The notes under the pieces were generated by a model that was not told the DNA's origin, ran no database searches, and saw nothing but the letters and a program-made list of their open reading frames with translations. Below, in pieces: positions 13,806 to 29,946 of a DNA stretch of 35,224 nucleotides. The DNA comes from Burkholderiales bacterium (GTDB lineage: Bacteria > Pseudomonadota > Gammaproteobacteria > Burkholderiales > SG8-41). The DNA is taken from positions 1 through 35,224 of the forward strand of contig JBKJPI010000236.1 in the NCBI GenBank assembly GCA_046595235.1, read 5' to 3'. Both the position numbers and the translations under genes were made by a program. Each line of letters begins with the position of its first letter. The first letter of the stretch is position 1.

Positions 13806-13874
13806 AAAGCCGCGTTCTTGCGAATTTGTCGGCGCCGAACCGAGCGAATCAGCAGGGAGCCTTCCGGAAATGAA

Positions 13875-14849
13875 ATGTCACCGAGTGCGCCTTTCGAATA
13901 TTACGACCTGAAGCCGGCCGCCGCCTCGTTCCTCGAGGACGTGACTGCCGGATTTTCCGCGCCCCGGAAGGCGCTGCCGCCGAAGTACTTCTACGACGAT
14001 CGCGGGTCGGCCTTGTTCGAGGCGATCTGCAACCTGCCGGAGTACTACCCGACGCGAACCGAGCTCGCGATGCTGGAGACACACGCTTCGGAGATTGCTG
14101 CGCGCATCGGGGCATCCGCTTCAGTCGTCGAGTACGGCAGCGGATCGGGGCGCAAAACCGCAGTGCTCCTGCGCGCGGTGACGCCCGTCGCTTACGTGGC
14201 GATCGATATTTCGGGCGAGCAACTGCGAGCGTCGATCGCGAGCCTGGCCGCAGCGTTTCCCGGCGTGCGGATGATCGCGCTATGCGCCGACTACACGCGC
14301 CCTTTGCCGCTGGCGCGGCTCGAAAACATCGGAGCGCGGCGCCGCGTCATTTATTTCCCGGGCTCTACCATCGGTAATTTCACGGTGCCCGAAGCGCTCG
14401 CCTTCCTTCGCGGTGCACGCACCGTCGCAGGAGAGGAGGGCGCCATGCTCGTCGGCGTCGATTTGAAGAAAGACGTAGCCACCCTGCACGCCGCGTACAA
14501 CGATGCGGCGGGTATTACGGCCGCCTTCAACCTGAATGTGCTTGAACGGATCAATCGCGAGCTCGCAGCGGACATCGATATCGAATCGTTCAGGCATCGC
14601 GCACATTACGACGAGGCTGCCGGCCGCATCGAGATGCATCTCGAGAGCTTGCATGACCAAACGGTCACCGTGGGCGGGCGCGCTTTCGAGTTCCGGGCGG
14701 GTGAGAGCATACACACTGAAAGCTCGTACAAATACTCGGTTGCCGGGTTCCAGGAACTTGCGCGCGAAGCGGGCTTCGACGCCCGGCATTGCTGGGTGGA
14801 TGAAAACAACTTGTTTTCGATCCACTACCTGAAGGTCGCCGCGCCATGA
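13875..14849 (+). CDS. egtD: L-histidine N-alpha-methyltransferase (EgtD-like, Methyltransf_33)
   Basis: KYFYDDRGSALFEAICNLPEYYPTRTE, VEYGSGSGRKT and FFPGSTIGNF are hallmark EgtD segments. ATG 13875 is preferred over the ORF-track 13818. Confidence 0.85.
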   Translation: MSPSAPFEYYDLKPAAASFLEDVTAGFSAPRKALPPKYFYDDRGSALFEAICNLPEYYPTRTELAMLETHASEIAARIGASASVVEYGSGSGRKTAVLLRAVTPVAYVAIDISGEQLRASIASLAAAFPGVRMIALCADYTRPLPLARLENIGARRRVIYFPGSTIGNFTVPEALAFLRGARTVAGEEGAMLVGVDLKKDVATLHAAYNDAAGITAAFNLNVLERINRELAADIDIESFRHRAHYDEAAGRIEMHLESLHDQTVTVGGRAFEFRAGESIHTESSYKYSVAGFQELAREAGFDARHCWVDENNLFSIHYLKVAAP

Positions 14850-14859
14850 GAGGAGCCGA

Positions 14860-16032
14860 TTGACGGCTGTGTCGCCGCGAACGCGCATCTATCTCATTGT
14901 TCTGATGTGCACGCTCAGCCATTCAGGATTCGGCGGCAGCCGCATCGCAGTCTCGCTCTATGCGCTCAATCAGGGCGCAAGCCAGTTCACGATCGGCATT
15001 CTGATGGCGCTGTACGCGATCGTGCCGCTTTTCATGGCCGTTCACGTGGGGCGTATGGCGGACCGGATGGGGCCGCGTGTGCCGATGCTGATCGGCACAG
15101 GGGGTGTCGTCGTCGGGCTGCTCCTGCCAGCGCTCTTTCCCGGGATGCTTTCGCTCTATCTCGCGGCGCTCGTCCTCGGATCAACGTTTCACTTTTTCTT
15201 CATCACGGTACAGGGGATCGCCGGCGGTATCGGTGGCTCGGAAAACCGCGCACAGAACTTCGCACTCGTCGGTATGGGGTTCTCGGCCGCTGGCTTCATC
15301 GGGCCGTTCCTCGCCGGGGTCGCTATCGATCACCTTGGCCATACCGCGGCCTTTTTCGTCTTGTCCGCGTTTCCGGTTGTACCTTTTCTGATGCTTATGC
15401 TGAAGCCCGGCTTTCTCCCAAAGCCCAGGCAACATGCCACTGGCGGCGGCGCTCACACCGCGTTCGACCTCTGGCGGATACCCGGTCTTCGCAGAACCTT
15501 TATCGCAAGCGGCATCATCTCGTCCGCGTGGGATCTTTTTCAGTTCTACTTTCCCATCTATGGGCACTCGGTTGGAATGTCTGCGTCGGCGATAGGCGCG
15601 GTGCTCGGTGTCTTTGCACTGGCCACTTTCACGATCCGCATCGTGCTATCACCGCTCGCAAGGCGCTACAGTGAAGCGCAGATACTCACCTTTGGGATCT
15701 TCGTAGCGGCGGTGGCATTCGTGCTCTTCCCATTCTTCAAGGACGCGTACGTACTCGCTGCGATTGCATTCCTGCTCGGCTTGGGCGTTGGCTGCGGGCA
15801 GCCCATGTCGATGTCACTCATCTACGCACTGGCGCCCGTGGGTCGCGCCGCGGAATGTGCGGGTCTGCGCGTCACAGTGAATAATTTCATGCACCTGCTT
15901 ATTCCGCTTTTTTTCGGGAGCCTCGGCACAGCCTTCGGGTACATGCCCGTCTTCCTGTCCAACAGCGGGATGCTTGTTGCGGCGGGAGTGCTCATGCGAA
16001 AAGCCCGCATCTCGGGATCGGCCCGAACCTGA
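14860..16032 (+). CDS. MFS transporter
   Basis: About 12 predicted TM helices and a GRMADRMGPR loop motif. TTG start 5 nt after a GAGAGGAG RBS. Confidence 0.85.
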   Translation: MTAVSPRTRIYLIVLMCTLSHSGFGGSRIAVSLYALNQGASQFTIGILMALYAIVPLFMAVHVGRMADRMGPRVPMLIGTGGVVVGLLLPALFPGMLSLYLAALVLGSTFHFFFITVQGIAGGIGGSENRAQNFALVGMGFSAAGFIGPFLAGVAIDHLGHTAAFFVLSAFPVVPFLMLMLKPGFLPKPRQHATGGGAHTAFDLWRIPGLRRTFIASGIISSAWDLFQFYFPIYGHSVGMSASAIGAVLGVFALATFTIRIVLSPLARRYSEAQILTFGIFVAAVAFVLFPFFKDAYVLAAIAFLLGLGVGCGQPMSMSLIYALAPVGRAAECAGLRVTVNNFMHLLIPLFFGSLGTAFGYMPVFLSNSGMLVAAGVLMRKARISGSART

Positions 16033-20692: not shown

Positions 20693-22087
20693 CTACGCTT
20701 TTATCGTGCTTGCTTCGCGCCGTTGTGCACCAGCCTCTGTCATTGCGTTATTCACCACGCGCACGTCGGCGATGTTCTCGAGATTCCGGATCGAGCTTAA
20801 GACAGCCATCGTTGCTGCTGCGGGAATGGCGCGGTTTGCGCAGTTCTCAAATTTATCCTGCAGTCTTTCCTGCGGCAGTGGGTTCGCCGAAGTCCGGCCT
20901 GCCGCCTGATCGACTTTTGAACCCAGTACGGTGCCGCCACGCAAGGTGACCTTCACCTCGGCGCCGAAATGATTGTCCTCCGGGAATTGCTCGGTCGAGT
21001 ACGGCGCCGCTTGCACGAGCGCCATCACACGCTGCACGTCCTCGTCGCGGTAGGCGTTCCCTTCGAAGTGCTCGATCGCAACCTTGCGGTCGATGACCGC
21101 TCGCGCGAGGCAGTACTGGACGCTGAATTTAGCGTCCTTCGTGCTCTGCGGATCGGGTCTGTTGGTGTGCTCGAGGCGGCGCTTGTGTGTCCAGCTTTGA
21201 ATGCGCTCGACTGCATCTGGCTTGAGATCGTTCGAACGCACGAGATCCAGCATGGCATCGATCGCGGGATGCGTGCTGCCGCAGCAGGGATACTGCTTGA
21301 TAGCGATGCCCGGCTTGACAATATCGAACGGCTGCCCCCATGCGGGCAGAATCTTTCCCGCGTCGTAATTGCCGGCGCCGTTATACACCTCGAAGTAACC
21401 TTGCTTGTGCTCAAACGCGACGGGGCTTGCCGTGTAGTCGTTACGAGCGAGCAGTGCGGCGAAAAGACCGTTACGCGCGCAGTGTCCGATGTGAAGCGGT
21501 TTCACGTAAGTACCGAAGTTCGATTTGATTCCGGACGCTAACGAAGCGGCGATTGCCAGCGCCGTTGCCGTGCGCTCGTCGTCGAGTCGAAGCAACCGCG
21601 CGCACGCCGCGGCCGCGCCGAATACACCGATCGTGGTGCTCGGGTGCCAGCCGCGGGTGTACTGATAGAGGTTCACGCCCAGCGAAATCTTGCACTCCGT
21701 TTCGAACCCAGCGACATACGCTGTGATGAAATCACGTCCGCTTGCGCCGATCTCATCGGCGAGGGCGAAGAGTGCGGGAAGGATCGGGGCGGATGGATGC
21801 CCGCCGAGCGTGTTGTTGCAGTCATCGAAATCGAGCGCATGCGAGGCGGTGCCGTTTATGAGCGCAGCATCGAGCGCACTCGTGCGTTTGCCGCTTCCCA
21901 GGACGAGACTCGGGCCGGCTGACGAGAGCACATCGGCCAGGAGGGTTGCCGAGGGATCAGAGCTTCCCGCAAGCGTCACGCCGACGGTATCGAGTATGCC
22001 CACCTTGGCCCAGTGAATGGCTTCCGGCGGGAGGTCCTCGTAGTGGAGCGCCGTAACCCGCTTGGCAAGCTCTAGTGCGAATCCCAT
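20693..22087 (-). CDS. MmgE/PrpD-family protein (2-methylcitrate dehydratase-like)
   Basis: MGFALELAKRV..LHYEDLP.., ASHALDFDD and GWHP motifs. ATG 22087 has a GGAG RBS. The upstream 92 codons of the ORF overlap the Bug gene and are rejected. Confidence 0.9.
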   Translation of the reverse strand: MGFALELAKRVTALHYEDLPPEAIHWAKVGILDTVGVTLAGSSDPSATLLADVLSSAGPSLVLGSGKRTSALDAALINGTASHALDFDDCNNTLGGHPSAPILPALFALADEIGASGRDFITAYVAGFETECKISLGVNLYQYTRGWHPSTTIGVFGAAAACARLLRLDDERTATALAIAASLASGIKSNFGTYVKPLHIGHCARNGLFAALLARNDYTASPVAFEHKQGYFEVYNGAGNYDAGKILPAWGQPFDIVKPGIAIKQYPCCGSTHPAIDAMLDLVRSNDLKPDAVERIQSWTHKRRLEHTNRPDPQSTKDAKFSVQYCLARAVIDRKVAIEHFEGNAYRDEDVQRVMALVQAAPYSTEQFPEDNHFGAEVKVTLRGGTVLGSKVDQAAGRTSANPLPQERLQDKFENCANRAIPAAATMAVLSSIRNLENIADVRVVNNAMTEAGAQRREASTIKA

Positions 22088-22140
22088 GGTGTGCGACTCC
22101 TTAAAACCTTGGCTTGATGTTGACTCAGGCGGGTGTCCGC

Positions 22141-23136
22141 CTAGTCCATGCGGATGTTCATCTGCCGGGTGAGCTTCGCCCACTTCGAGACTTCGGCGCG
22201 AATGTGTTCTTCGAACTGCTGCGGCGTGCTGCCCACAGGCTCTGACCCGTCGGCTGCGAGCCGGGTCGCGAGCTCCGGCAGGCGCAGAATCTCCACGATT
22301 TCCTTGTTGAGCCGCGAGATGATGGATGAGGGCGTCTTTAGTGGTGCGATGACCCCGTACCATCCTGCAACTTCGTAGCCCTTGACGCCAGCTTCCTGCA
22401 TCGTCGGAAGATCAGGCGCGGCACGCGAACGCTTCGCCGTGGTGACGGCGAGCGGGCGCAGCTTTCCGGCCTTGATGTGAGGCTGCGACTGCAGAATTGT
22501 GGAGTAGAGCATCTGTATCTGGCCCGCAATGACGTCGATCATCGCGGGGTTGCCGCCTTTGTAGGGCACATGCACGATATCGAGTTGCGCAACGTAACTG
22601 AAGAGTGCACCCGAGAGGTGGCTGAGACCGCCCGTGCCGGACGAGCCGTAATTCAGTTGACCAGGTTTGGCCTTTGCCAGTGCAATCAGGTCTTTCACTG
22701 ATTTTGCCTGCACCGAAGGATGCACGACCAGCGCATAAGGCTGTGTGGTCGCCTGCGTGATGGGCATCAGATCGCGCGTGAGGTCGTAAGGCAGACCTTT
22801 GATGAGCGATGCGTTCACCGAGTGGCTCGATGAAATCATGCTGAGCGTATATCCATCCGGCAGGGCTTTAGTGAGGATGTCCACGGCGATGGTGCCGTTC
22901 GCACCTGGCCGGTTGTCGGCGACGAACTGTTGTCCGAGACGCTCCGTCAGGCCCTGCGCGATCGAGCGCGCGGTGATGTCAGTACCCCCGCCGGGCGCGA
23001 AAGGAACGAGGAGGCGCACAGGCTTCGTTGGATAAGGCGCGGTGGTGCTGCTTTGCGCCGCGTGCGCGGTACCGCACGCGAGTGCGATCGTGACTGCAGC
23101 CGTGTCAATGATGAATTTGCGGCGAATGGCCCGCAT
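22141..23136 (-). CDS. Bug-family (TctC-like) tripartite tricarboxylate transporter substrate-binding protein
   Basis: Signal peptide, then YPTKPVRLLVPFAPGGGTD..ARS and VPYKGG motifs characteristic of Bug/TctC. Confidence 0.9.
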   Translation of the reverse strand: MRAIRRKFIIDTAAVTIALACGTAHAAQSSTTAPYPTKPVRLLVPFAPGGGTDITARSIAQGLTERLGQQFVADNRPGANGTIAVDILTKALPDGYTLSMISSSHSVNASLIKGLPYDLTRDLMPITQATTQPYALVVHPSVQAKSVKDLIALAKAKPGQLNYGSSGTGGLSHLSGALFSYVAQLDIVHVPYKGGNPAMIDVIAGQIQMLYSTILQSQPHIKAGKLRPLAVTTAKRSRAAPDLPTMQEAGVKGYEVAGWYGVIAPLKTPSSIISRLNKEIVEILRLPELATRLAADGSEPVGSTPQQFEEHIRAEVSKWAKLTRQMNIRMD

Positions 23137-23151: not shown

Positions 23152-23246
23152 TGGCGGAAGAGAGTGGGAGTCGAACCCACGCAGGACCGCCTGCGGCCCC
23201 TACCGGGTTTGAAGTCCGGCCGCCCCACCGGGAGCGATTCCCTTCC
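23152..23246 (-). tRNA. selC: tRNA-Sec (anticodon UCA), genomically encoded CCA
   Basis: The minus strand reads GGAAGGGAATCGCTCCCGGTGGGGCGGCCGGACTTCAAACCCGGTAGGGGCCGCAGGCGGTCCTGCGTGGGTTCGACTCCCACTCTCTTCCGCCA. It has an 8-bp acceptor stem, a 6-bp D stem with a 4-nt loop, anticodon loop CUUCAAA, a long variable arm and a 5-bp T stem (GTGGG/CCCAC, loop TTCGACT). This 8/5 architecture is the hallmark of bacterial tRNA-Sec. It is adjacent to selA and selB. Confidence 0.9.
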
Positions 23247-23356
23247 AGGAGGTAACACTATTTATTACGAACAGATCTGCTGCGCACTTCCGATCCTGGC
23301 TTCAGACCGGAAGCATTCTCATTCTAATCGCCGCTACGCGATTCGTGGCGCAGATT

Positions 23357-24271
23357 TCATTTTTTGAGCCGGGCAACGACGGCGGCAGCTGCTGCACGGG
23401 CTTCGTTCATCGCCTCGGTCAGCGTTCCACCGTACCCGCTGCGCACTGCGCCGATGGCTGAAACATTGGGCATGGCTGTTTGGAACGAATCATCGGTTCG
23501 GACGAACCCGGCAGCGTCACGATCGATGGTGGATGGCAGGAATGCCGTGTTTGGTTCCAGCCCGATGTAGGCGAAGACCCCTGCGCAGGGAAGCTCTTCG
23601 GTACGGCCGTCTGCGTGGCGCACGCGCGCTTTCTCGACCATTTTGGAGCCGAGGATCGATTCGAGGGTTGCATTAAGCACGAGGGATATCTTGTCGTTTA
23701 CCCTGACCCGTTCCACCCAGTGATCTACAGCGCGGAACGTTTCGCTGCGATGCACGAGATGCACGCCGCTGCAGTATTGAGCGAGCACGAGGGCTTCCTG
23801 GAAAGCCGAGTCGCCACCGCCGATGACAATCACTTCTTCGTTCTGGAACATGGGGCCGTCGCAATCCGCGCATTGCGATACGCCGCGACCTTCGAACTCG
23901 GATTCCCCAGGGATGCCAAGCTTTCTCAGGCTGCCGCCGGAGGCGACCACGATATGCCGCGCGCTATAAGCCGCTGAAGCCGCGACTGCCTCGACGAGCA
24001 GGCCGCTTTGACGCACCGCTGTTACCGGTTCCTGAATACTCTCGACGCCGTGTTCGGCATTAGCCTGCATCATTTCAGCTGCGAGCTCCGCACCGGACGC
24101 TGGCAAACCCGCCGGCGCAGGTTCGAGCTCGTTCACGTTGATAACGAGCCCGCCGAAAAGTTGCGCCTCCATCGTGGTGACCTTGAGCCCGGCCTGCGCC
24201 AGCGCGCCCGCAGCAGTGAGACCGCTCACCCCTTCGCCAATCACGATTACGTCGTACGTCGGTTGCGACAC
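23357..24271 (-). CDS. Thioredoxin-reductase-like NAD(P)/FAD-dependent oxidoreductase (redox-active CADC)
   Basis: FAD GxGxxG (VIGEGVSG), redox motif SQCADCDG (versus CATCDG in TrxB), NAD(P)H site VIGGGDSAFQEA and HRSETFRA. GTG start 12 nt after the selB stop, with GGGGAA as RBS. Confidence 0.85.
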   Translation of the reverse strand: MSQPTYDVIVIGEGVSGLTAAGALAQAGLKVTTMEAQLFGGLVINVNELEPAPAGLPASGAELAAEMMQANAEHGVESIQEPVTAVRQSGLLVEAVAASAAYSARHIVVASGGSLRKLGIPGESEFEGRGVSQCADCDGPMFQNEEVIVIGGGDSAFQEALVLAQYCSGVHLVHRSETFRAVDHWVERVRVNDKISLVLNATLESILGSKMVEKARVRHADGRTEELPCAGVFAYIGLEPNTAFLPSTIDRDAAGFVRTDDSFQTAMPNVSAIGAVRSGYGGTLTEAMNEARAAAAAVVARLKK

Positions 24272-24283
24272 GTCCGTGTTCCC

Positions 24284-26290
24284 CTATCTTCTGTAGTTGT
24301 GCACCGGCCGACGCTGTGTGGCGGGTTTAGGCGCCGGCTGCGGCGCCGCTGCTCTCGGCGGCGGGGGCGGTGCAGTTGCGGGCCCGAGGATGGGAACGAA
24401 GTCTTTGCGCATCTTCCGTGCATCGCCGACGCGTTGTGTAATACCGAGGCCATCAAGAAATTCGAGAATTTCGATGGCCAGGCTGCGGCCGACGCCTGTC
24501 GCGTCACGATATTGCGCTGCTGTGAACTGGCCATTCACCTGCGCCTGGGCCGTGGCCTGTGCGATCGCAGCAAGAATGGCGAGCGTCGTACGCGCGTAAA
24601 AACGGTCAGGCGTGACGCGCATGACTTCGCCGGTCTTGGCTTTTCGATAGAGGAAGTCCTTGAGCACGGCCTCCTTCAACTTCACCTGAAGAGCGAGATC
24701 ACGCACCGGCGGGGGGTTGAAAGCCAGCGCTTCGAGGACAGGCCGTACTGCTTGCCAGAGACGCTCGTCAGCGTCATTCGCAGTCGCGTTGTGACCGGGC
24801 AGACGTGCTGTCGACCCCCCGGTTTCAATTCTGCGAGCATCCGTGAGTCGCCTCAGCACGCTTGCGAATGCATCGCCGCCGAGATCCGAAGCGACAGCGG
24901 CGCGCAGCGTCTCCACCTCTTCTCCCGCCGCTTGCGGTTGACGTCGATGAAAATCAGCGAGCTGTTCGAGAACTGCCGTCTCAATGCCCTGATGGCGAGT
25001 GTGCGTGATCGCAACGCTCGCGTCCTTGCCAAGCTGCACGAGGTTCAGCGCTTCATAGAGTTTTACTGCGGTTCCGCCCTCGAGGTTGTATGCCAGCTCG
25101 AAGTGCTTCAGATCTATTGGACGTCCGGTCGCCTCGAGAGCCGCGAGGGCATCTGCGGGTGAGTCGAGCTCGAGCGCTGCCAGCTCGCCCAGGCGCGCAG
25201 GCGTGCTGCGGCGCGTTGCCGGCGCCAACGGATCGAGAACGAATCCCCCGCCCAGGGTCCGCGTGGCTGATTGATCACGGACGATGAAACGATCGCCGCG
25301 CAGGGCGCCGATGGGCTGATCGAGAACGATCTGAACGACTGCGCTCGCGCCCGGAGCCACTGAGTCGCCCCTGCGCGTCGCGATCCGTCCCGTTACGTCG
25401 CTCGTTGCAAGGTGCAGGTGGATCGGGGTCCAATGCTCGAGCGCCTGCGGTTCGGTGTTTAGAACCTTGATGCGCGCGTCGAAGCGCCGCGTCGGCCGGT
25501 GGATCGCTTCGGCGACCACCCAGTCCCCGCGCCGCATCGACTCGAGCCCGCTGCCCGTGAGATTGAGTGCGCAACGCTCGCCGGCTGCAGCGCGATCAGC
25601 GGGCTTCCCCTGAATTTGAAGCCCTCGCACGCGAACGGGCGTTCCCGCCGGAGAGAGCACGAGCTTGTCGCCGGTCGCAACGGCGCCGTTGAAGACGGTG
25701 CCGGTTACAACGGTACCGCTGCCGGACATGCTGAAGGTGCGGTCTACTGCGTACCGAAAGTGTTGCCCAGTCGAGCGCCGGGCCGCTTGACCAGCCGCTT
25801 CCGAAAAGAGCAACGTCCGCAGTCGATCAATTCCTGCCCCAGTGATCGCAGACACCGGCATGACCGGGGCGCCTGCAAGGCTCGTCCCCTCGAGCAGCGC
25901 TGCGACGCTTCGCTCCACCTCACGCATGCGGATCTCGTCGACGCGATCGATCTTCGTGATCACCGCGGCGGCGCGGGAGACGTGCAGGAGATCGAGAATG
26001 TGCAGATGTTCGATCGTCTGCGGCATTACCCCGTCATCGGCCGCGACGACGAGGAGGGCGAAGTCTATTCCGCAGACGCCGGCCAGCATGTTGCGGATGA
26101 ATCGTTCGTGTCCCGGCACATCCACAAAACCGAGAAGGCCGCCGGCAGGGAGCGGGAGGTATGCGAATCCGAGGTCGATCGAAATGCCGCGGGCTTTCTC
26201 TTCGGGAAGACGGTCTGTATCAACGCCGGTCAGCGTTTTCACGAGGAGCGTCTTGCCGTGATCGATGTGGCCTGCGGTTGCGACGATCAT
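24284..26290 (-). CDS. selB: Selenocysteine-specific translation elongation factor SelB
   Basis: GTPase motifs (ATAGHIDHGKT, DVPGHERF, TKID), EF-Tu-like domains II/III and winged-helix C-terminal domains. Pro/Ala-rich tail. ATGA overlap with selA. Confidence 0.92.
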   Translation of the reverse strand: MIVATAGHIDHGKTLLVKTLTGVDTDRLPEEKARGISIDLGFAYLPLPAGGLLGFVDVPGHERFIRNMLAGVCGIDFALLVVAADDGVMPQTIEHLHILDLLHVSRAAAVITKIDRVDEIRMREVERSVAALLEGTSLAGAPVMPVSAITGAGIDRLRTLLFSEAAGQAARRSTGQHFRYAVDRTFSMSGSGTVVTGTVFNGAVATGDKLVLSPAGTPVRVRGLQIQGKPADRAAAGERCALNLTGSGLESMRRGDWVVAEAIHRPTRRFDARIKVLNTEPQALEHWTPIHLHLATSDVTGRIATRRGDSVAPGASAVVQIVLDQPIGALRGDRFIVRDQSATRTLGGGFVLDPLAPATRRSTPARLGELAALELDSPADALAALEATGRPIDLKHFELAYNLEGGTAVKLYEALNLVQLGKDASVAITHTRHQGIETAVLEQLADFHRRQPQAAGEEVETLRAAVASDLGGDAFASVLRRLTDARRIETGGSTARLPGHNATANDADERLWQAVRPVLEALAFNPPPVRDLALQVKLKEAVLKDFLYRKAKTGEVMRVTPDRFYARTTLAILAAIAQATAQAQVNGQFTAAQYRDATGVGRSLAIEILEFLDGLGITQRVGDARKMRKDFVPILGPATAPPPPPRAAAPQPAPKPATQRRPVHNYRR

Positions 26291-27735
26291 GAGATCAACT
26301 TGAGCTGCGCGAGCTGTCCGACAAAAGCCATTTCGTCGTCTAGACAGCGCAAGTCCAACAAGAAGGCATCAGCCTTGATGCGTCCGATCACCGGAACCGG
26401 CAGCGCGCGAAAAGCCTCGGCGATGCGTCGGGCGGCAGAGCCTTTACTCTTTCCAGTGCCTTCCACCGCGATCGCCGCGCTGGGCAGAGAGTCCACCGGT
26501 AAGGAGCCGCTTCCGATCTGGCTCGCGCACGCCTCCACGCGCGCATGAGCCCTCTCACCCACTGCTGCGGAAACATGACCCAGGAGACGCTGCGCCTGCT
26601 GTTCGATCTCGTCGACCGGCCGCGTGAGAAAGCGCAATGTCGGCAACTCTTGTCTGAGGCGTGCAGGGTTCAGGTACAACTGCAGAACCGCGTCGAGTGC
26701 GGCGAGCGTCATCTTGTCGACCCGCAGCGCACGCTTCATCGGATTTTTTCGAATGCGTGTAACGAGCTCTTTACGGCCAACGATCAGACCCGCCTGTGGC
26801 CCACCGAGAAGCTTGTCTCCGCTGAAGGTCACGATGTCGGCGCCACTTGTGAGCGTCTGCGCAGGGGTGGGCTCGTGCGGAAGGCCGTATTCCTCGAGAT
26901 CTACAAGCATGCCGCTTCCGAGATCCACGATGAGCGGAAGGTGATGCTCGTGAGCAAGTCGGGCGAGATCAGCTTCGGCCACGGCGGCGGTGAAGCCGTG
27001 AATAGCATAATTGCTTGTGTGCACCTTCATGATCGCCGCCGTGCGTGGACCGATGGCTGCTGCGTAATCGTCGAGGTGCGTGCGATTCGTCGTGCCGACT
27101 TCGCGCAGCTTGCAGCCGGCGCGCGCCATGATGTCAGGAATACGGAACGCGCCGCCGATTTCGATCAGCTCTCCGCGCGAAACGACGACCTCCTTGCGCA
27201 CGGCAAGCGTGTTCAGTGCGAGGTAAACGGCGGCCGCGTTGTTATTGACGACGGCTGCTGCCTCGCCACCGGTCAAACGCGTGAGCCAGCGCTCGATGTG
27301 CGAATCGCGCTCTCCGCGTGCAGCGCCTTCGAGATCGAATTCAAGGTTCACAGGCCGCGTCATTGCCTGCATCACCGCTTCTGCCGCGCATTGCGGCATC
27401 AGTGCGCGGCCGAGATTCGTGTGAAGGACGGTACCAGTAAGGTTGTAGACCGATTTGAGTGAAGGCCGCGTGTCGTGTGCGAGCTGTGCCGCGCACATGT
27501 CGAGGAAAACTTCGAGGTCGAACACGTTTGACCCCGTTGCGTCTGCCAATACGCTGCGCCGGGCATCCAGTTGCGCCCGCAGGATCTGAATCACGTGCGG
27601 CCTTCCGTATTGGCCGATCAGTGCGTCAACGCGTGAGTCGTTGAGGAGCTTGTCGATCGAAGGGAGCGCGCGACGCGCGGCAGAGCTGGTGCTCAGCACG
27701 GCGGTGCGGGAAGAGCAGTGAGGACGAATGCGCAT
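26287..27735 (-). CDS. selA: L-seryl-tRNA(Sec) selenium transferase SelA
   Basis: LPSIDKLL.. N-terminus and a PLP-enzyme core with FSGDKLLGGPQAG (PLP lysine), typical of SelA. Confidence 0.92.
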   Translation of the reverse strand: MRIRPHCSSRTAVLSTSSAARRALPSIDKLLNDSRVDALIGQYGRPHVIQILRAQLDARRSVLADATGSNVFDLEVFLDMCAAQLAHDTRPSLKSVYNLTGTVLHTNLGRALMPQCAAEAVMQAMTRPVNLEFDLEGAARGERDSHIERWLTRLTGGEAAAVVNNNAAAVYLALNTLAVRKEVVVSRGELIEIGGAFRIPDIMARAGCKLREVGTTNRTHLDDYAAAIGPRTAAIMKVHTSNYAIHGFTAAVAEADLARLAHEHHLPLIVDLGSGMLVDLEEYGLPHEPTPAQTLTSGADIVTFSGDKLLGGPQAGLIVGRKELVTRIRKNPMKRALRVDKMTLAALDAVLQLYLNPARLRQELPTLRFLTRPVDEIEQQAQRLLGHVSAAVGERAHARVEACASQIGSGSLPVDSLPSAAIAVEGTGKSKGSAARRIAEAFRALPVPVIGRIKADAFLLDLRCLDDEMAFVGQLAQLKLIS

Positions 27736-27860
27736 GCCGAGAAGGCGCGCGATTGAACCGGCATAAACGGATTCGCAAGGCCGAGCGTAAGGCCGGCTAG
27801 TTTAGCCTAAACTGTCTGCGCGACGCATCGCGCTTGCCATCGCCCCACGGCGAACGCGAC

Positions 27861-27890
27861 AAAAAAGCCGCGCGTTGCGCGGCCTTTTTT
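27861..27890. terminator. Rho-independent, bidirectional-looking terminator between the selenoprotein gene and selA
   Basis: A6, then GCCGCGC-GTT-GCGCGGC, then C T6. On the minus strand it follows the stop at 27902 by about 12 nt. Confidence 0.65.
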
Positions 27891-27901
27891 ACGAGCTCGG
27901 G

Positions 27902-28675
27902 TTACTCGAAAAGTCGCTCCGGCAGTGGCAGTCCGGCGATTTCCTCGGCCGTGAGGCGTCGCTTCGGCTCCACGCCATAGCGCTCCAGCACGTGCGCGAG
28001 CTGACGTGCGTGCTGAGCCGAATGCCACGTCGAACGTTCGAGTACAGCGTGCATCGGCTGGGGCCCGTAGAACGTCGGAAGTGCTCGCGTACACGACTTG
28101 TCGTCGAGCCCCGCCCACCATTTTTCCAAACGGGCGGTGACCTCATCCCCGTAACGCGCGATGTCCGTGCCCGTCATGAACGTGCCGTCCTTCGGCGGCA
28201 CATTCGCAAGCTGGATCGCATATTCCACGCCGTCGGTCACGGTTTCGAGAAACGCTTCGCCGATGCGGAACACATGGTGCGCGAGAAGGCGAATCGCGCG
28301 ATCGCGATTTGGGATTACGCGTTCGTTGATTTTGTCGTCGGGTATCTGGCGGACGAGTCCTTGCGCAACACGCAGGACGTTGATCCACTTTACGATGAGC
28401 TCATCAGGTGGAAGCGGCGTGTGGCCCGTGCCCTGAAGACCGACAAACTCTGCAACGTCTTCGAGATTCTGGCCGAAGACGTAGCTCTCGCCTTTTGAAA
28501 CCACGGGGACGTTGCGCACGCCGAGCTTGAGCAGACGCTCGCGGCCGCCAGCGTCGTTGAGCACGTCGACGATATCGTAGTCGATGCCTTTACGCGAAAG
28601 AAACTCTTTCGCCCGGAGACAGCTGCTTCAGCCAGGCTGCGTGAAAAGCGTGAATCTGTCGGTGATCGCGTTCAT
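27902..28675 (-). CDS. Candidate selenoprotein: glutaredoxin-like (U-S-S-C) domain fused to a DinB/YfiT-like domain. In-frame TGA (28630-28628) read as Sec at codon 16
   Basis: Hand translation from ATG 28675 (AGGA RBS 7 nt upstream) gives MNAITDRFTLFTQPG-TGA-SSCLRAKEFLSRKGIDYDIVDV, which runs in frame into the ORF-track ORF 27902..28564 (LNDAGGRERLLKLGVRNVPVVSKGESYVFG...). This is a Grx fold pattern: beta1, CxxC position, helix, beta2, cis-Pro VP, GxxxxG. The C-terminal about 170 aa carry DinB-like His motifs (LLAHHVFR.., ERSTWHSAQHARQL). Total 257 codons plus stop. Confidence 0.75.
28594..28612 (-). promoter_or_regulatory. Candidate bacterial SECIS hairpin downstream of the in-frame UGA
   Basis: The mRNA reads GCGAAAGA-GUU-UCUUUCGC: an 8-bp perfect stem with a G/U-containing apical loop, starting 15 nt after the UGA. 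Confidence 0.55.
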
Positions 28676-28749
28676 AAATTCATCCTGCGGGTGAGGTGAG
28701 CTCGGAGGCTACTCCTCGCTTTGTTCGGGCGTCAAGGCAACGCACCCGA

Positions 28750-29946
28750 TCAGATCGAACCGGGCGTTACCGAACCGGGTGGGCATGCAGCAGGCGCCGC
28801 GCTCGGCACTTCGGACCGCGCGGATTCGATGATGCCGCCGCCCAGGCACACGCGGCTTTCGTACACCACCACGGACTGCCCAGGGGTCACGGCCCACTGC
28901 GCTTCCGCGAACTCGACGGTGCAGCCGTCAGCATCGACCGACACGAGTGTGCACGGCGCATCTTTCTGTCTGTAGCGCGTCTTCGCGCCATACACCCAGT
29001 GGCATGGCGGCCGGGTGCCGCTGACCCAGCTCAACTTCATTGCAGTCAGCCGGCTCGAGTAAAGCGCGCGATTCTCGCGCCCCTGCACGACGAGGAGGCG
29101 GTTGCGTTTCAGATCCTTGTCGACGACATACCATGCATCGCCATCGCCATTGACCTGCCCGCCGATCCGTAAGCCCTGGCGCTGTCCCAGCGTGTAGAAC
29201 ATGAGTCCCATGTGTTCCCCGACGAGTCGGCCGTCGAGCGAATAGATATGCCCCGGGTCGGCGGGGAGGTAACGGTTCAGAAACTCGCGGAACGGGCGCT
29301 CGCCGATGAAACAGATCCCCGTCGAGTCCTTCTTGTCGTGATTGGGGAGCGCTGCGCGCCTGGCGATTTCCCGCACCTCGCGCTTATATAAAGCACCGAT
29401 GGGAAAGATCGTTTTTGCAAGCTGTTGCTGATCGAGTCTGTAGAGGAAATAGCTTTGATCTTTCGAGCCGTCTTCCGCTTTGAGTAGCTGATGCAGGCCG
29501 TCGACTTCGCGCAACTGCGCATAGTGACCGGTTGCAATGTAGTCAGCACCGAGCGTTAGCGCATGATCGAGAAAGGCGCGAAACTTGATCTCTGCATTGC
29601 AGAGGACATCGGGGTTCGGAGTGCGGCCCGCCTGATATTCGGCGAGGAACTCGGTGAATACCCTGTCTTTGTACTCCGCGGAGAAATTTACCGCCTCGAT
29701 TTCTATATCGAGGGCAGTGGCGGCGGCGACAGCGTCAATGAGATCCGTGCGGGAGCTGCAGTAATCATCAGTGTCATCGTCCTCCCAATTCTTCATGAAG
29801 AGCCCGATGACATCATGTCCCGCTTCCTTGAGCAGGAGAGCGGCCACCGATGAGTCGACGCCCCCGGACATACCGACGACGATGCGTTTGCGTGGTTTTA
29901 TGGCGATGACGAGTGGGGATCTACAGTCGGCGGTGGGGAGCCCCAC
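28750..29946 (-). CDS. mnmA: tRNA 2-thiouridine(34) synthase MnmA
   Basis: PP-loop [11 protein letters not shown], the DYCS Cys, KDQSYFL and C-terminal GGGII. GTG start, exact position uncertain. Confidence 0.9.

What the first reader, a model, noticed from the sequence alone, without database searches (positions are those of the whole stretch)
23152..28675. Compact, co-directional selenium module: selenoprotein, selA, selB, TrxR-like reductase, tRNA-Sec, with no classical selenoprotein gene nearby
All five elements lie on the minus strand within 5.5 kb. selA and selB overlap by ATGA. The TrxR-like gene starts 12 nt after the selB stop, with its RBS in that gap. selC follows 110 nt later. Sec-decoding genes in proteobacteria usually accompany formate dehydrogenase, but nothing of that kind is in this 35-kb window. 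Placing a pyridine-nucleotide disulfide reductase inside the sel operon, next to a UxxC Grx-like protein, suggests a dedicated two-component redox relay: NAD(P)H to flavoprotein CADC to the Sec-Grx domain to DinB-domain chemistry. That would be a functional system rather than chance adjacency, and possibly a main reason this genome keeps the Sec trait.
Basis: inference. Interest (0 to 1): 0.85.

Follow-up and report, generated by a model that had tools for sequence, protein, structure and literature searches.

The report
Selenium gene island with extra reductase
The genes for inserting selenocysteine into proteins sit here beside an apparently undescribed selenium-containing enzyme and carry an extra thioredoxin-reductase-like gene; the arrangement is real and conserved in one group of uncultured soil and water bacteria, but it is not shown that the reductase serves that enzyme.

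Summary
On the minus strand lie tRNA-Sec, a TrxR-like flavoprotein, selB, selA and a 257-aa Grx-DinB selenoprotein with an in-frame UGA. All spacing claims hold, and the 35-kb window has no fdh or selD.

The selenoprotein is solid:
- UGA is present in 80/80 related genomes, and distant homologues have Cys at that position.
- Six codons forming a hairpin 15 nt after the UGA show no synonymous change in 81 sequences. The K-E-F-L codons among them vary freely in 51 Cys-form genes.

The order Grx-DinB, selA, selB, TrxR-like, tRNA-Sec recurs in 37 species-level MAGs of uncultured Burkholderiales, so the adjacency is not chance.

The proposed NAD(P)H to flavoprotein to Sec-Grx relay is only partly supported:
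- The flavoprotein is welded to selB (48/48 loci, median gap 37 nt), not to Grx-DinB.
- Grx-DinB usually has its own terminator and lies 0–8.3 kb from selA.
- No orthologous TrxR-like gene accompanies Grx-DinB in 80 Cys-form loci or in four independent Sec-form lineages.
- Classical fdh-selAB clusters also lack it.

In favour of the relay, the Grx domain is NrdH/BC3987-like, a class reduced by low-Mr TrxR, and it is the only Trx-fold protein found in the island.

Verdict: a new variant of a sel gene cluster with an apparently undescribed selenoprotein family.

The parts
23152..23246 (-). selC, the tRNA-Sec gene (anticodon TCA, encoded CCA end)
   Evidence: ARAGORN; Rfam RF01852 75.8 bits, full-length 1-91/91; sequence read
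23357..24271 (-). TrxR-like FAD/NAD(P)H disulfide reductase, 304 aa. CADC redox pair at residues 134-137. The NADPH motif is degenerate (HRSETFR) and the FAD 'GD' motif reads 'GA'.
   Evidence: Pfam Pyr_redox_2 E = 2.9e-37. TIGR01292 scores 232.7 bits, below the 343.45 cutoff. Best PDB matches are low-Mr TrxRs, E = 1.7e-49. Motif conservation across 120 homologues.
24284..26290 (-). selB, the Sec-specific elongation factor, 668 aa, with a Pro/Ala-rich C-terminal tail
   Evidence: TIGR00475 443 bits against a cutoff of 242; SelB winged-helix Pfam domains. Its stop codon is 12 nt before the flavoprotein GTG.
26287..27735 (-). selA, selenocysteine synthase, 482 aa. Its stop overlaps the selB start as ATGA.
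   Evidence: TIGR00474 596 bits against a cutoff of 268; overlap read
27861..27890 (-). Intrinsic-terminator-like hairpin (GCCGCGC-AAC-GCGCGGC) flanked by an A-run and a T-run, directly after the selenoprotein stop codon
   Evidence: Sequence; scan. An equivalent hairpin plus T-run, with different stem sequences, is present in 19 of 24 related loci where selA follows within 400 nt.
27902..28675 (-). Grx-DinB fusion selenoprotein, 257 aa: an N-terminal NrdH/Grx-like Trx fold with U16-S-S-C19, and a C-terminal DinB/YfiT four-helix bundle with the His triad H134/H218/H222
   Evidence: Translation; Pfam. Homologues are truncated at the TGA in databases. Cys-forms have the motif QPGC[ST]SC. Invariant His residues. 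Structure model and Foldseek search.
28628..28630 (-). UGA selenocysteine codon (codon 16)
   Evidence: TGA in 80/80 related loci and in four independent lineages; Cys codon in distant homologues
28586..28620 (-). SECIS hairpin. The core, 28595-28612, is GCG AAA GAG TTT CTT TCG with an apical GUU loop, and the stem starts 15 nt after the UGA.
   Evidence: Fold of -21.6 kcal/mol. No synonymous variation in codons +6 to +11 in 81 distinct sequences, while all 57 other codons vary. The K-E-F-L codons among them vary freely in 51 Cys-form genes.

Best explanation
This is a clade-specific selenocysteine island made of three transcription units.

1. A stand-alone gene for a Sec-containing Grx-DinB enzyme.
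2. An operon, selA-selB-trxR-like.
3. selC.

Shown: SelA, SelB and tRNA-Sec are the machinery that would read the UGA at codon 16 of the Grx-DinB mRNA, guided by a SECIS hairpin that starts 15 nt downstream.

Inferred:
- The enzyme uses Sec16 as nucleophile and Cys19 as resolving residue, in an NrdH-like domain packed against a His3 metal site of a DinB/YfiT-fold domain. That fold is used by mycothiol- and bacillithiol-dependent S-transferases and by maleylpyruvate isomerase.
- The protein therefore carries its own built-in thiol or selenol in place of a small-molecule thiol cofactor. It acts on a small electrophilic or organic-acid substrate.
- Each turnover that ends in a Se-S bond must be recycled. 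The most likely recycler is the co-inherited TrxR-like flavoprotein: NAD(P)H to FAD to Cys134/Cys137 to the Sec-Cys pair, as low-Mr TrxR does for NrdH.
- The reductase is a clade-specific add-on expressed together with the Sec machinery. It is not a universal partner of the Grx-DinB family.
For: Island and operon:
- All five elements recur in the same order in 37 species-level genomes.
- selA is present in 60/67, selB in 51/53 and TrxR-like in 42/45 loci that have enough flanking DNA.
- TrxR-like follows every full-length selB (48/48, median gap 37 nt).
- Reciprocal look-ups starting from the flavoprotein give the same synteny.

Selenoprotein:
- UGA in 80/80 loci, Cys in distant homologues, and a SECIS frozen at synonymous sites only in the Sec-forms.

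Fold:
- The model of a 51%-identical Cys-form homologue has pLDDT 92.9 and pTM 0.89.
- Its C-terminal domain matches YfiT, DR0053, maleylpyruvate isomerase and mycothiol S-transferase.
- Its N-terminal domain matches BC3987 and NrdH, TMt 0.83-0.89.
- The His triad and C/U-x-x-C motif are invariant.

Relay plausibility:
- NrdH and BC3987 are reduced by low-Mr TrxR (PMC8564101).
- CADC is invariant in 120/120 flavoprotein homologues.
- No thioredoxin, selD or YedE/YedF gene lies in the island, so the Grx domain is the only Trx-fold partner encoded nearby.
- Classical fdh-linked selAB clusters lack the flavoprotein. It appears only where selAB sits next to this selenoprotein.
Against: - The flavoprotein is physically coupled to selB, not to Grx-DinB.
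- Grx-DinB has its own terminator-like hairpin in 19/24 loci. It lies 0-8.3 kb from selA (median about 1.2 kb), often with an inserted convergent TctC gene.
- One locus (L044) has no selA within 10 kb of Grx-DinB.
- Of 80 Cys-form Grx-DinB loci, none has an orthologous TrxR-like gene.
- Four independent Sec-form lineages have none either. The family evidently works without a dedicated reductase elsewhere.
- All positive synteny comes from one clade (69-81% identity), so shared descent contributes.
- There is no biochemical or expression data.
- The substrate and chemistry of the DinB domain are unknown.
- The structural model is of a homologue, and I could not measure the distance from the Sec site to the metal site.
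Confidence: 0.45

Rival explanations
1. The TrxR-like flavoprotein is an accessory of selenocysteine biosynthesis, not of the selenoprotein. It would help reduce selenite or selenotrisulfides to selenide, or a protein-bound equivalent, for selenophosphate synthetase. That would explain why it is translationally coupled to selA-selB.
For: - It is tightly coupled to selB in 48/48 loci (median gap 37 nt), while Grx-DinB drifts.
- A terminator separates Grx-DinB from the operon.
- The flavoprotein is absent next to Cys-form and independent Sec-form Grx-DinB genes.
- The bacterial thioredoxin system is needed for selenite assimilation into selenoproteins (PMC8538045, citing Takahata 2008).
Against: - Classical selAB clusters in Paracoccus and Caballeronia have no such gene, so it is not a general part of the machinery.
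- In the cited work, selenite reduction by the bacterial system needed thioredoxin as well as the reductase (PMC8538045). No thioredoxin, selD or Se-transport gene lies in any of the islands.
Confidence: 0.25
2. The flavoprotein is a diverged TrxR paralogue with an unrelated or general redox role, for example another disulfide substrate or another selenoprotein encoded elsewhere. It entered the selAB operon in the ancestor of this clade and persists there by descent.
For: - All synteny evidence comes from a single clade.
- It fails the TrxR equivalog cutoff, and its NADPH and FAD motifs are altered, so its substrate is open.
- Flanking housekeeping genes (rluE, mnmA, clpA) are equally syntenic.
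Against: - Gene order around the operon has been reshuffled repeatedly: insertions between Grx-DinB and selA, and 18-2400 nt plus extra genes before tRNA-Sec. The selB-flavoprotein junction stays tight while the flavoprotein itself diverges to 50% identity. This argues for selection on co-expression.
Confidence: 0.2
3. The 257-aa reading frame is not a selenoprotein. On this view the TGA is a true stop or a sequencing error, and the real gene is the 220-aa DinB protein that databases annotate.
For: Public gene calls for nearly all relatives are 220-238 aa, named 'DinB family protein' or 'hypothetical protein'.
Against: - TGA is conserved in 80/80 genomes, with a conserved reading frame on both sides.
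- Cys aligns at that position in full-length homologues.
- The SECIS is frozen at synonymous sites only in the TGA-containing genes.
- The truncated form would lack strand beta-1 and the catalytic residue of the Trx fold.
- The Sec machinery is adjacent.
Confidence: 0.02

Closest known systems
Classical proteobacterial fdh-linked sel cluster (fdnGHI-fdhE-selA-selB ... selC)
   Same: selA and selB overlap and are co-directional. selC lies a short distance downstream. The Sec machinery sits beside a client selenoprotein gene.
   Different: Here the client is a Grx-DinB enzyme rather than formate dehydrogenase. An extra TrxR-like gene is fused onto the end of the selAB operon. No fdh or fdhE is present in 35 kb.
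NrdH / BC3987 redoxin with low-Mr thioredoxin reductase
   Same: The N-terminal domain has the NrdH/BC3987 fold (TMt 0.83-0.89, 30-34% identity) with a redox pair at the same place. A low-Mr TrxR-family flavoprotein with a CxxC motif is encoded nearby. TrxR reduces NrdH directly (PMC8564101).
   Different: The redoxin here carries Sec in place of the first Cys and is fused to a DinB domain. It is not linked to ribonucleotide reductase. The reductase fails the TrxR equivalog cutoff and has altered cofactor motifs.
DinB/YfiT-fold (S-transferase-like) thiol-dependent metalloenzymes: bacillithiol and mycothiol S-transferases, and mycothiol-dependent maleylpyruvate isomerase
   Same: Four-helix-bundle fold and a conserved three-His metal site. 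The chemistry depends on a thiol nucleophile.
   Different: Those enzymes use a diffusible small thiol. This family has a covalently fused Grx-like domain that supplies a Cys or Sec pair. Sequence identity is only 14-17%, and Pfam DinB_2 scores just under its cutoff.
Glycine reductase (grd) gene clusters of Clostridia, which contain trxB-trxA next to selenoprotein genes grdA/grdB (from my own knowledge; not checked here)
   Same: A thioredoxin-reductase gene is embedded in a selenoprotein gene cluster, with electrons flowing from NADPH through the Trx system to a Sec/Cys redox pair.
   Different: That system uses a separate thioredoxin. The sel genes are not part of the operon, the organisms are anaerobic Firmicutes, and the selenoproteins are unrelated to DinB.
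Sec-containing glutaredoxin (PF00462, UxxC) of Clostridium oremlandii
   Same: A Grx-family domain with a UxxC motif, listed as a known selenoprotein family (PMC13188914). cGrx structures appear among the fold matches.
   Different: Those are single-domain, GSH-linked glutaredoxins. This protein is a two-domain fusion, and its Grx part is nearer to NrdH-type redoxins.

Membership tests
Bacterial selenoprotein (UGA/SECIS-decoded) | In-frame UGA conserved among orthologues, with the coding frame conserved on both sides | tested here: met
   TGA in 80/80 related loci and in 4 independent lineages; flanking codons are conserved as protein
Bacterial selenoprotein (UGA/SECIS-decoded) | Cys-containing homologues align at the Sec position | tested here: met
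   Full-length homologues carry QPGC[ST]SC
Bacterial selenoprotein (UGA/SECIS-decoded) | SECIS stem-loop shortly downstream of the UGA | tested here: met
   The hairpin starts 15 nt after the UGA and has a GUU apical loop. Six codons are frozen at synonymous sites in 81 Sec-forms. The K-E-F-L codons among them are variable in 51 Cys-forms. No compensatory double changes were available, because the stem is invariant.
Bacterial selenoprotein (UGA/SECIS-decoded) | Complete Sec machinery in the genome (selA, selB, selC, selD) | tested here: inconclusive
   selA, selB and selC are adjacent. selD was not found in the window or in any fetched locus. The whole genome is not available.
Bacterial selenoprotein (UGA/SECIS-decoded) | Selenium incorporation demonstrated (75Se labelling or mass spectrometry) | not testable with these tools
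   Needs an experiment
Glutaredoxin / NrdH-like thioredoxin fold | Passes the family profile and has a CxxC-type motif at the N-terminus of helix 1 | tested here: met
   PF00462 scores 49.1 bits against a cutoff of 22.9. U-S-S-C precedes helix 14-25 in the model of the homologue. Fold matches to NrdH and BC3987. It fails all NCBIfam equivalog cutoffs for NrdH, YruB, Grx3 and the Uxx-star families.
DinB/YfiT (S-transferase-like) superfamily | Passes the Pfam DinB_2 profile | tested here: inconclusive
   24.1 bits against a gathering score of 24.8. Many homologues carry a precomputed PF12867 hit.
DinB/YfiT (S-transferase-like) superfamily | Four-helix-bundle fold with a conserved three-His metal site | tested here: met
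   Foldseek probability 1.00 to 1rxq, 6iz2, 2nsf and 8f5v, TMt up to 0.84. H134, H218 and H222 are invariant in 38 sequences. The model is of a 51%-identical homologue, not of the window protein itself.
Low-Mr thioredoxin reductase (TrxB) | Passes the equivalog model TIGR01292 | tested here: not met
   232.7 bits against a cutoff of 343.45
Low-Mr thioredoxin reductase (TrxB) | Redox-active CxxC in the NADPH domain, plus FAD and NAD(P)H Rossmann motifs | tested here: met
   CADC, GEGVSG and GGGDSA are invariant or nearly so in 120 homologues. The protein aligns end to end with solved TrxRs.
Low-Mr thioredoxin reductase (TrxB) | NADPH 2'-phosphate motif HRRxxxR and the FAD 'GD' motif (motif definitions from my own knowledge) | tested here: not met
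   The window has HRSETFR. The second position is G, R or S across the family. 'GD' is replaced by 'GA' in 117/120 homologues.
Low-Mr thioredoxin reductase (TrxB) | Reduces a thioredoxin-fold substrate with NADPH | not testable with these tools
   Needs an enzyme assay
selA / selB / tRNA-Sec | Pass the curated equivalog or covariance models | tested here: met
   TIGR00474 596 bits; TIGR00475 443 bits; RF01852 75.8 bits
Dedicated two-component relay (flavoprotein plus Grx-DinB as a conserved gene pair) | The two genes co-localise across independent lineages | tested here: not met
   They co-localise only in one Burkholderiales clade. Among 80 Cys-form loci there is no orthologue; the single TrxR-like hit is 29% identical and on the opposite strand. 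None is present in 4 independent Sec-form lineages.

The most novel reading that the evidence does not exclude
The Grx-DinB protein is the first selenoprotein of the DinB/S-transferase-like superfamily. It would be a self-contained enzyme in which a fused Sec-Cys redoxin replaces the small-molecule thiol cofactor. In an abundant lineage of uncultured aerobic Burkholderiales it has captured the whole Sec-decoding apparatus together with a private TrxR-like recycling enzyme. That would make it the principal reason these bacteria retain selenocysteine in the absence of a linked formate dehydrogenase.
Probability: 0.3. Interest if true: 0.7.

Novelty: new variant of a known kind. Interest (0 to 1): 0.55.

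Why it matters
- Selenocysteine use in Proteobacteria is usually explained by formate dehydrogenase. Here the Sec machinery is instead parked next to a different client: a Grx-DinB fusion enzyme. Public databases mis-annotate that enzyme as a truncated 'DinB family protein' in thousands of metagenomic entries.
- Recognising it adds an apparently undescribed selenoprotein family. It corrects those gene calls and gives a concrete, testable case of a sel operon that has recruited its own pyridine-nucleotide disulfide reductase.
- If the reductase recycles the selenoprotein, this is a compact three-part system (machinery, client, recycler) that could be moved into a host for study.
- If instead the reductase feeds selenium to SelD, it identifies a missing step of selenium assimilation.
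- Either result is reachable with simple enzyme assays.

Tried and rejected
1. MFE of the 46 nt after the UGA does not separate Sec-forms (-12.9 ± 2.8) from Cys-forms (-11.3 ± 3.4) in this GC-rich coding sequence. I used synonymous-site analysis instead.
2. Covariation in the SECIS stem could not be shown. The stem is invariant within the clade, and in other lineages its apical part encodes the conserved K-E-F-L.
I modelled a 51%-identical Cys-form homologue instead.
4. I looked for selD, thioredoxin or Se-transporter genes between the flavoprotein and tRNA-Sec, and anywhere else in 169 loci. None was found.
5. The plasmid collection, used as an independent source of selB contexts, gave only classical fdh-linked clusters.
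6. Literature searches for a DinB-domain selenoprotein or a TrxR-like gene in sel operons found nothing. That means absence from the library searched, not proof of novelty.
7. The sigma-70 promoter scan found no sites in the region, so it was uninformative.
8. The idea that the Grx-DinB family is generally tied to mnmA was rejected. The adjacency holds in 77/80 loci of the clade but in 0/80 Cys-form loci.
Full report
**1. What is there**

ARAGORN and Rfam both find a full-length tRNA-Sec at 23152-23246 on the minus strand. Upstream of it, on the same strand, lie four genes:

- A 304-aa pyridine-nucleotide disulfide oxidoreductase at 23357-24271.
- selB at 24284-26290. It passes its NCBIfam equivalog cutoff (443 bits against 242).
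- selA at 26287-27735. It also passes its cutoff (596 bits against 268).
- A reading frame from the ATG at 28675 to the stop at 27902, which passes through one TGA at 28628-28630.

Read through, that last frame gives a 257-aa protein with the motif PG-U-SSC. It has a Glutaredoxin domain (49 bits) and a DinB_2 match just under the Pfam cutoff (24.1 against 24.8).

- selA and selB overlap as ATGA.
- There are 12 nt between the selB stop and the flavoprotein GTG, with an AGGGGA stretch that overlaps the stop codon.
- There are 110 nt from the flavoprotein stop to tRNA-Sec.

The rest of the window encodes:
- ssb, pta, aspS, an ABC exporter and a two-component system;
- a D-Ala-D-Ala carboxypeptidase, an EgtD-type methyltransferase, an MFS transporter and a DegP-like protease;
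- a spermidine-synthase-like protein, MmgE/PrpD, TctC, mnmA, rluE and clpA.

There is no formate dehydrogenase, no selD and no other recognisable selenoprotein gene.

**2. The selenoprotein is real**

A scan of one genome per species found 293 genomes encoding a relative. The 80 best loci (69-81% identity) are all MAGs of uncultured Betaproteobacteria/Burkholderiales, and all 80 have TGA at the same codon. Public gene calls for these proteins are 220-238 aa, meaning they start after the TGA.

Distant family members are called full length and carry Cys there, in the motif QPGC[ST]SC. The representative search found 829 clusters at 50% identity.

A hairpin starts 15 nt after the UGA. It has a 7-8 bp stem and a GUU loop. 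Its six codons, GCG AAA GAG TTT CTT TCG, show no synonymous change in 81 distinct sequences, whereas every one of the 57 other codons examined varies.

As a control, in 51 distinct Cys-form genes the same K-E-F-L codons wobble freely: AAG 44/AAA 7, GAG 37/GAA 14, TTC 33/TTT 18, CTC 30/CTG 16/CTT 2. The RNA-level constraint is therefore specific to the UGA-containing genes, as expected of a SECIS. Folding energy alone does not discriminate, and no compensatory changes were available because the stem is invariant.

**3. The island is conserved but is not one operon**

Across the 80 loci the order is rluE, mnmA, Grx-DinB, selA, selB, TrxR-like, tRNA-Sec, all co-directional. Where enough flanking DNA exists:

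| Element | Present in |
|---|---|
| selA | 60/67 loci |
| selB | 51/53 loci |
| TrxR-like | 42/45 loci |
| tRNA-Sec | 29/38 loci |

All five elements are seen together in 37 loci. Two look-ups that started from the flavoprotein, on contigs of 249 and 417 kb, show the same order.

The spacing is informative:
- selA to selB has a median gap of 21 nt.
- selB to the flavoprotein has a median gap of 37 nt. The flavoprotein follows every full-length selB (48/48), with one exception in spacing, at 3.8 kb.
- Grx-DinB to selA ranges from overlap to 8.3 kb (median about 1.2 kb), often with a convergent TctC gene inserted. One locus has no selA within 10 kb.

In the window, a GC hairpin with a T-run follows the selenoprotein stop codon (27861-27890). 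An equivalent feature, with different stem sequences, is present in 19 of 24 loci where selA follows closely.

The best reading is therefore three units: the selenoprotein gene, the operon selA-selB-flavoprotein, and selC.

**4. Does the flavoprotein travel with the Grx-DinB protein?**

- I scanned metagenomes with a profile of Cys-form family members. Of 80 loci, none had selA, selB, tRNA-Sec or mnmA. Only one had any TrxR-like gene, and it was 29% identical and on the opposite strand.
- I then found four independent lineages in which the gene has TGA (YWQPG-TGA-TSC), at 37-45% identity to the window protein. None has a TrxR-like gene, selAB or tRNA-Sec within 10 kb. Their neighbours are catabolic enzymes.
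- Conversely, classical selAB clusters in Paracoccus and in Caballeronia (Burkholderiaceae) are fdnGHI-fdhE-selA-selB ... tRNA-Sec with no flavoprotein.

So the flavoprotein is neither a general partner of Grx-DinB nor a general part of the Sec machinery. It occurs where selAB lies beside the Sec-form Grx-DinB, in one clade.

**5. What the proteins look like**

The flavoprotein:
- It aligns end to end with solved low-Mr thioredoxin reductases, best E = 1.7e-49. It scores better against the top-ranked TrxR entries (5mh4, 5uwy, 2a87) than against the 1tde entry.
- It fails the TrxB equivalog cutoff.
- In 120 homologues CADC is invariant, as are the FAD and NAD(P)H glycine motifs.
- The HRRxxxR motif is degenerate, and the FAD 'GD' motif reads 'GA' in 117/120.

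The Grx-DinB protein:
- A model of a 51%-identical Cys-form homologue is confident (pLDDT 92.9, pTM 0.89).
- The C-terminal domain matches YfiT, DinB DR0053, mycothiol-dependent maleylpyruvate isomerase and mycothiol S-transferase.
- The N-terminal domain matches BC3987 and NrdH redoxins (TMt 0.83-0.89) and the clostridial glutaredoxins.
- Three histidines (H134, H218, H222 in the window protein) are invariant. From my own knowledge, this pattern matches the metal site of YfiT-type proteins.
- NrdH/BC3987 are known substrates of low-Mr TrxR (PMC8564101).

**6. Mechanism**

Shown:
- A Sec-decoding apparatus lies next to a UGA/SECIS gene.
- There is a tight selA-selB-flavoprotein operon.
- The enzyme has two domains, a Sec/Cys redox pair and a His3 site.

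Inferred:
- The enzyme uses its own selenol in place of a small-molecule thiol, at a DinB-type metal centre.
- It ends its cycle as a Se-S bond, which is reduced by the flavoprotein with NAD(P)H.

I rate this relay at about 0.45. It is favoured by the NrdH-like fold, by the absence of any other Trx-fold gene in the island, and by the fact that the flavoprotein appears only where this selenoprotein is the neighbour.

The main rival, at about 0.25, is a role in supplying reduced selenium to SelD. That would fit the coupling to selB and the known need for the thioredoxin system in selenite assimilation (PMC8538045). It suffers from the lack of a thioredoxin or selD nearby and from the gene's absence in classical sel clusters.

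A hitch-hiking paralogue with another role remains possible, at about 0.2.

**7. Novelty**

- sel clusters, UxxC Trx-fold selenoproteins and TrxR-redoxin pairs are all known.
- A 2026 review that tabulates prokaryotic selenoprotein families does not mention DinB, YfiT or PF12867.
- Full-text searches for 'selenoprotein' together with 'DinB' return nothing relevant.
- A comparative-genomics study of selenium-linked genes does not mention a TrxR-like candidate.
- NCBIfam has no model that the protein passes.

I therefore class this as a new variant of a known kind: an apparently undescribed selenoprotein family, plus a sel operon that has recruited a reductase. Interest is moderate. It is useful and testable, but it does not overturn anything.

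Noticed in passing
window 20693-22363 (-); protein P0330; loci L081-L160: One distant Cys-form family member (P0330, 721 aa) is a fusion of an MmgE/PrpD domain with Grx-DinB. An MmgE/PrpD gene lies two genes downstream of tRNA-Sec in this window. MmgE/PrpD homologues occur in 24/80 Sec-clade loci and 9/80 Cys-form loci, 4 of them directly adjacent. This hints that the Grx-DinB enzyme acts in di- or tricarboxylate catabolism.
   Followed up: partly
window 28676-28749 (gap between mnmA and the selenoprotein gene); L001-L080: In 61 of 80 related genomes a glutathione S-transferase gene lies on the opposite strand within 700 nt upstream of Grx-DinB (a divergent pair). This window lacks it and has only a 74-nt gap.
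   Followed up: partly
window 22141-23136 (-); L081-L160: TctC/Bug-family solute receptors are frequent neighbours of Grx-DinB genes: 32/80 Cys-form loci, several immediately downstream on the same strand, and convergent insertions between Grx-DinB and selA in the Sec clade. Such genes are very abundant in Burkholderiales, so the background rate is unknown.
   Followed up: partly
window 13818-14849 (+) and 14860-16032 (+); L168 19886-20859: An EgtD-type SAM-dependent histidine methyltransferase (Methyltransf_33, E = 3e-114) sits next to an MFS transporter, with no EgtB seen. The same gene type is syntenic on a related 249-kb contig. A link to ergothioneine- or selenoneine-type chemistry is not examined.
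   Followed up: no
window 28750-29946 (-): mnmA (tRNA 2-thiouridine synthase) sits directly upstream of the selenoprotein gene and is present upstream in 77/80 related loci, but in 0/80 Cys-form loci. From my own knowledge, the product of this enzyme is the substrate for 2-selenouridine synthesis. The adjacency looks like clade synteny rather than a functional link.
   Followed up: partly
window 24284-24380 (-), SelB residues about 637-668: SelB ends in a Pro/Ala-rich low-complexity tail (…GPATAPPPPPRAAAPQPAPKPATQRRPVHNYRR). About half of the related SelB proteins align only to residue about 636.
   Followed up: no
window 23357-24271 (-), residues 174-180 and 273-277: The TrxR-like protein family has a degenerate NADPH 2'-phosphate motif (HR[G/R/S]xxF[R/K]). 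It has 'GA' where solved TrxRs have the FAD-binding 'GD', in 117/120 homologues. Two further conserved cysteines, C167 and C229, are present.
   Followed up: partly
L013, L043, L047 and others, between the TrxR-like gene and tRNA-Sec: In at least 12 related loci a gene of about 210 aa occupies the gap between the flavoprotein gene and tRNA-Sec. By eye it resembles the YaeQ family; I did not run it against a profile library. The window has only 110 nt there.
   Followed up: no
window 20693-22363 (-) versus 22141-23136 (-): The mechanical 556-aa ORF for MmgE/PrpD overlaps the TctC gene by about 220 nt. The Pfam match starts at residue 98, so the true start is probably the internal ATG (…MGFALELAK…) near 22090.
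   Followed up: no
public protein databases: Thousands of database entries for this family are truncated at the UGA and named 'DinB family protein', 'glutaredoxin domain-containing protein' or 'hypothetical protein'. Sec-forms occur in several unrelated lineages, implying repeated Cys/Sec exchange.
   Followed up: partly
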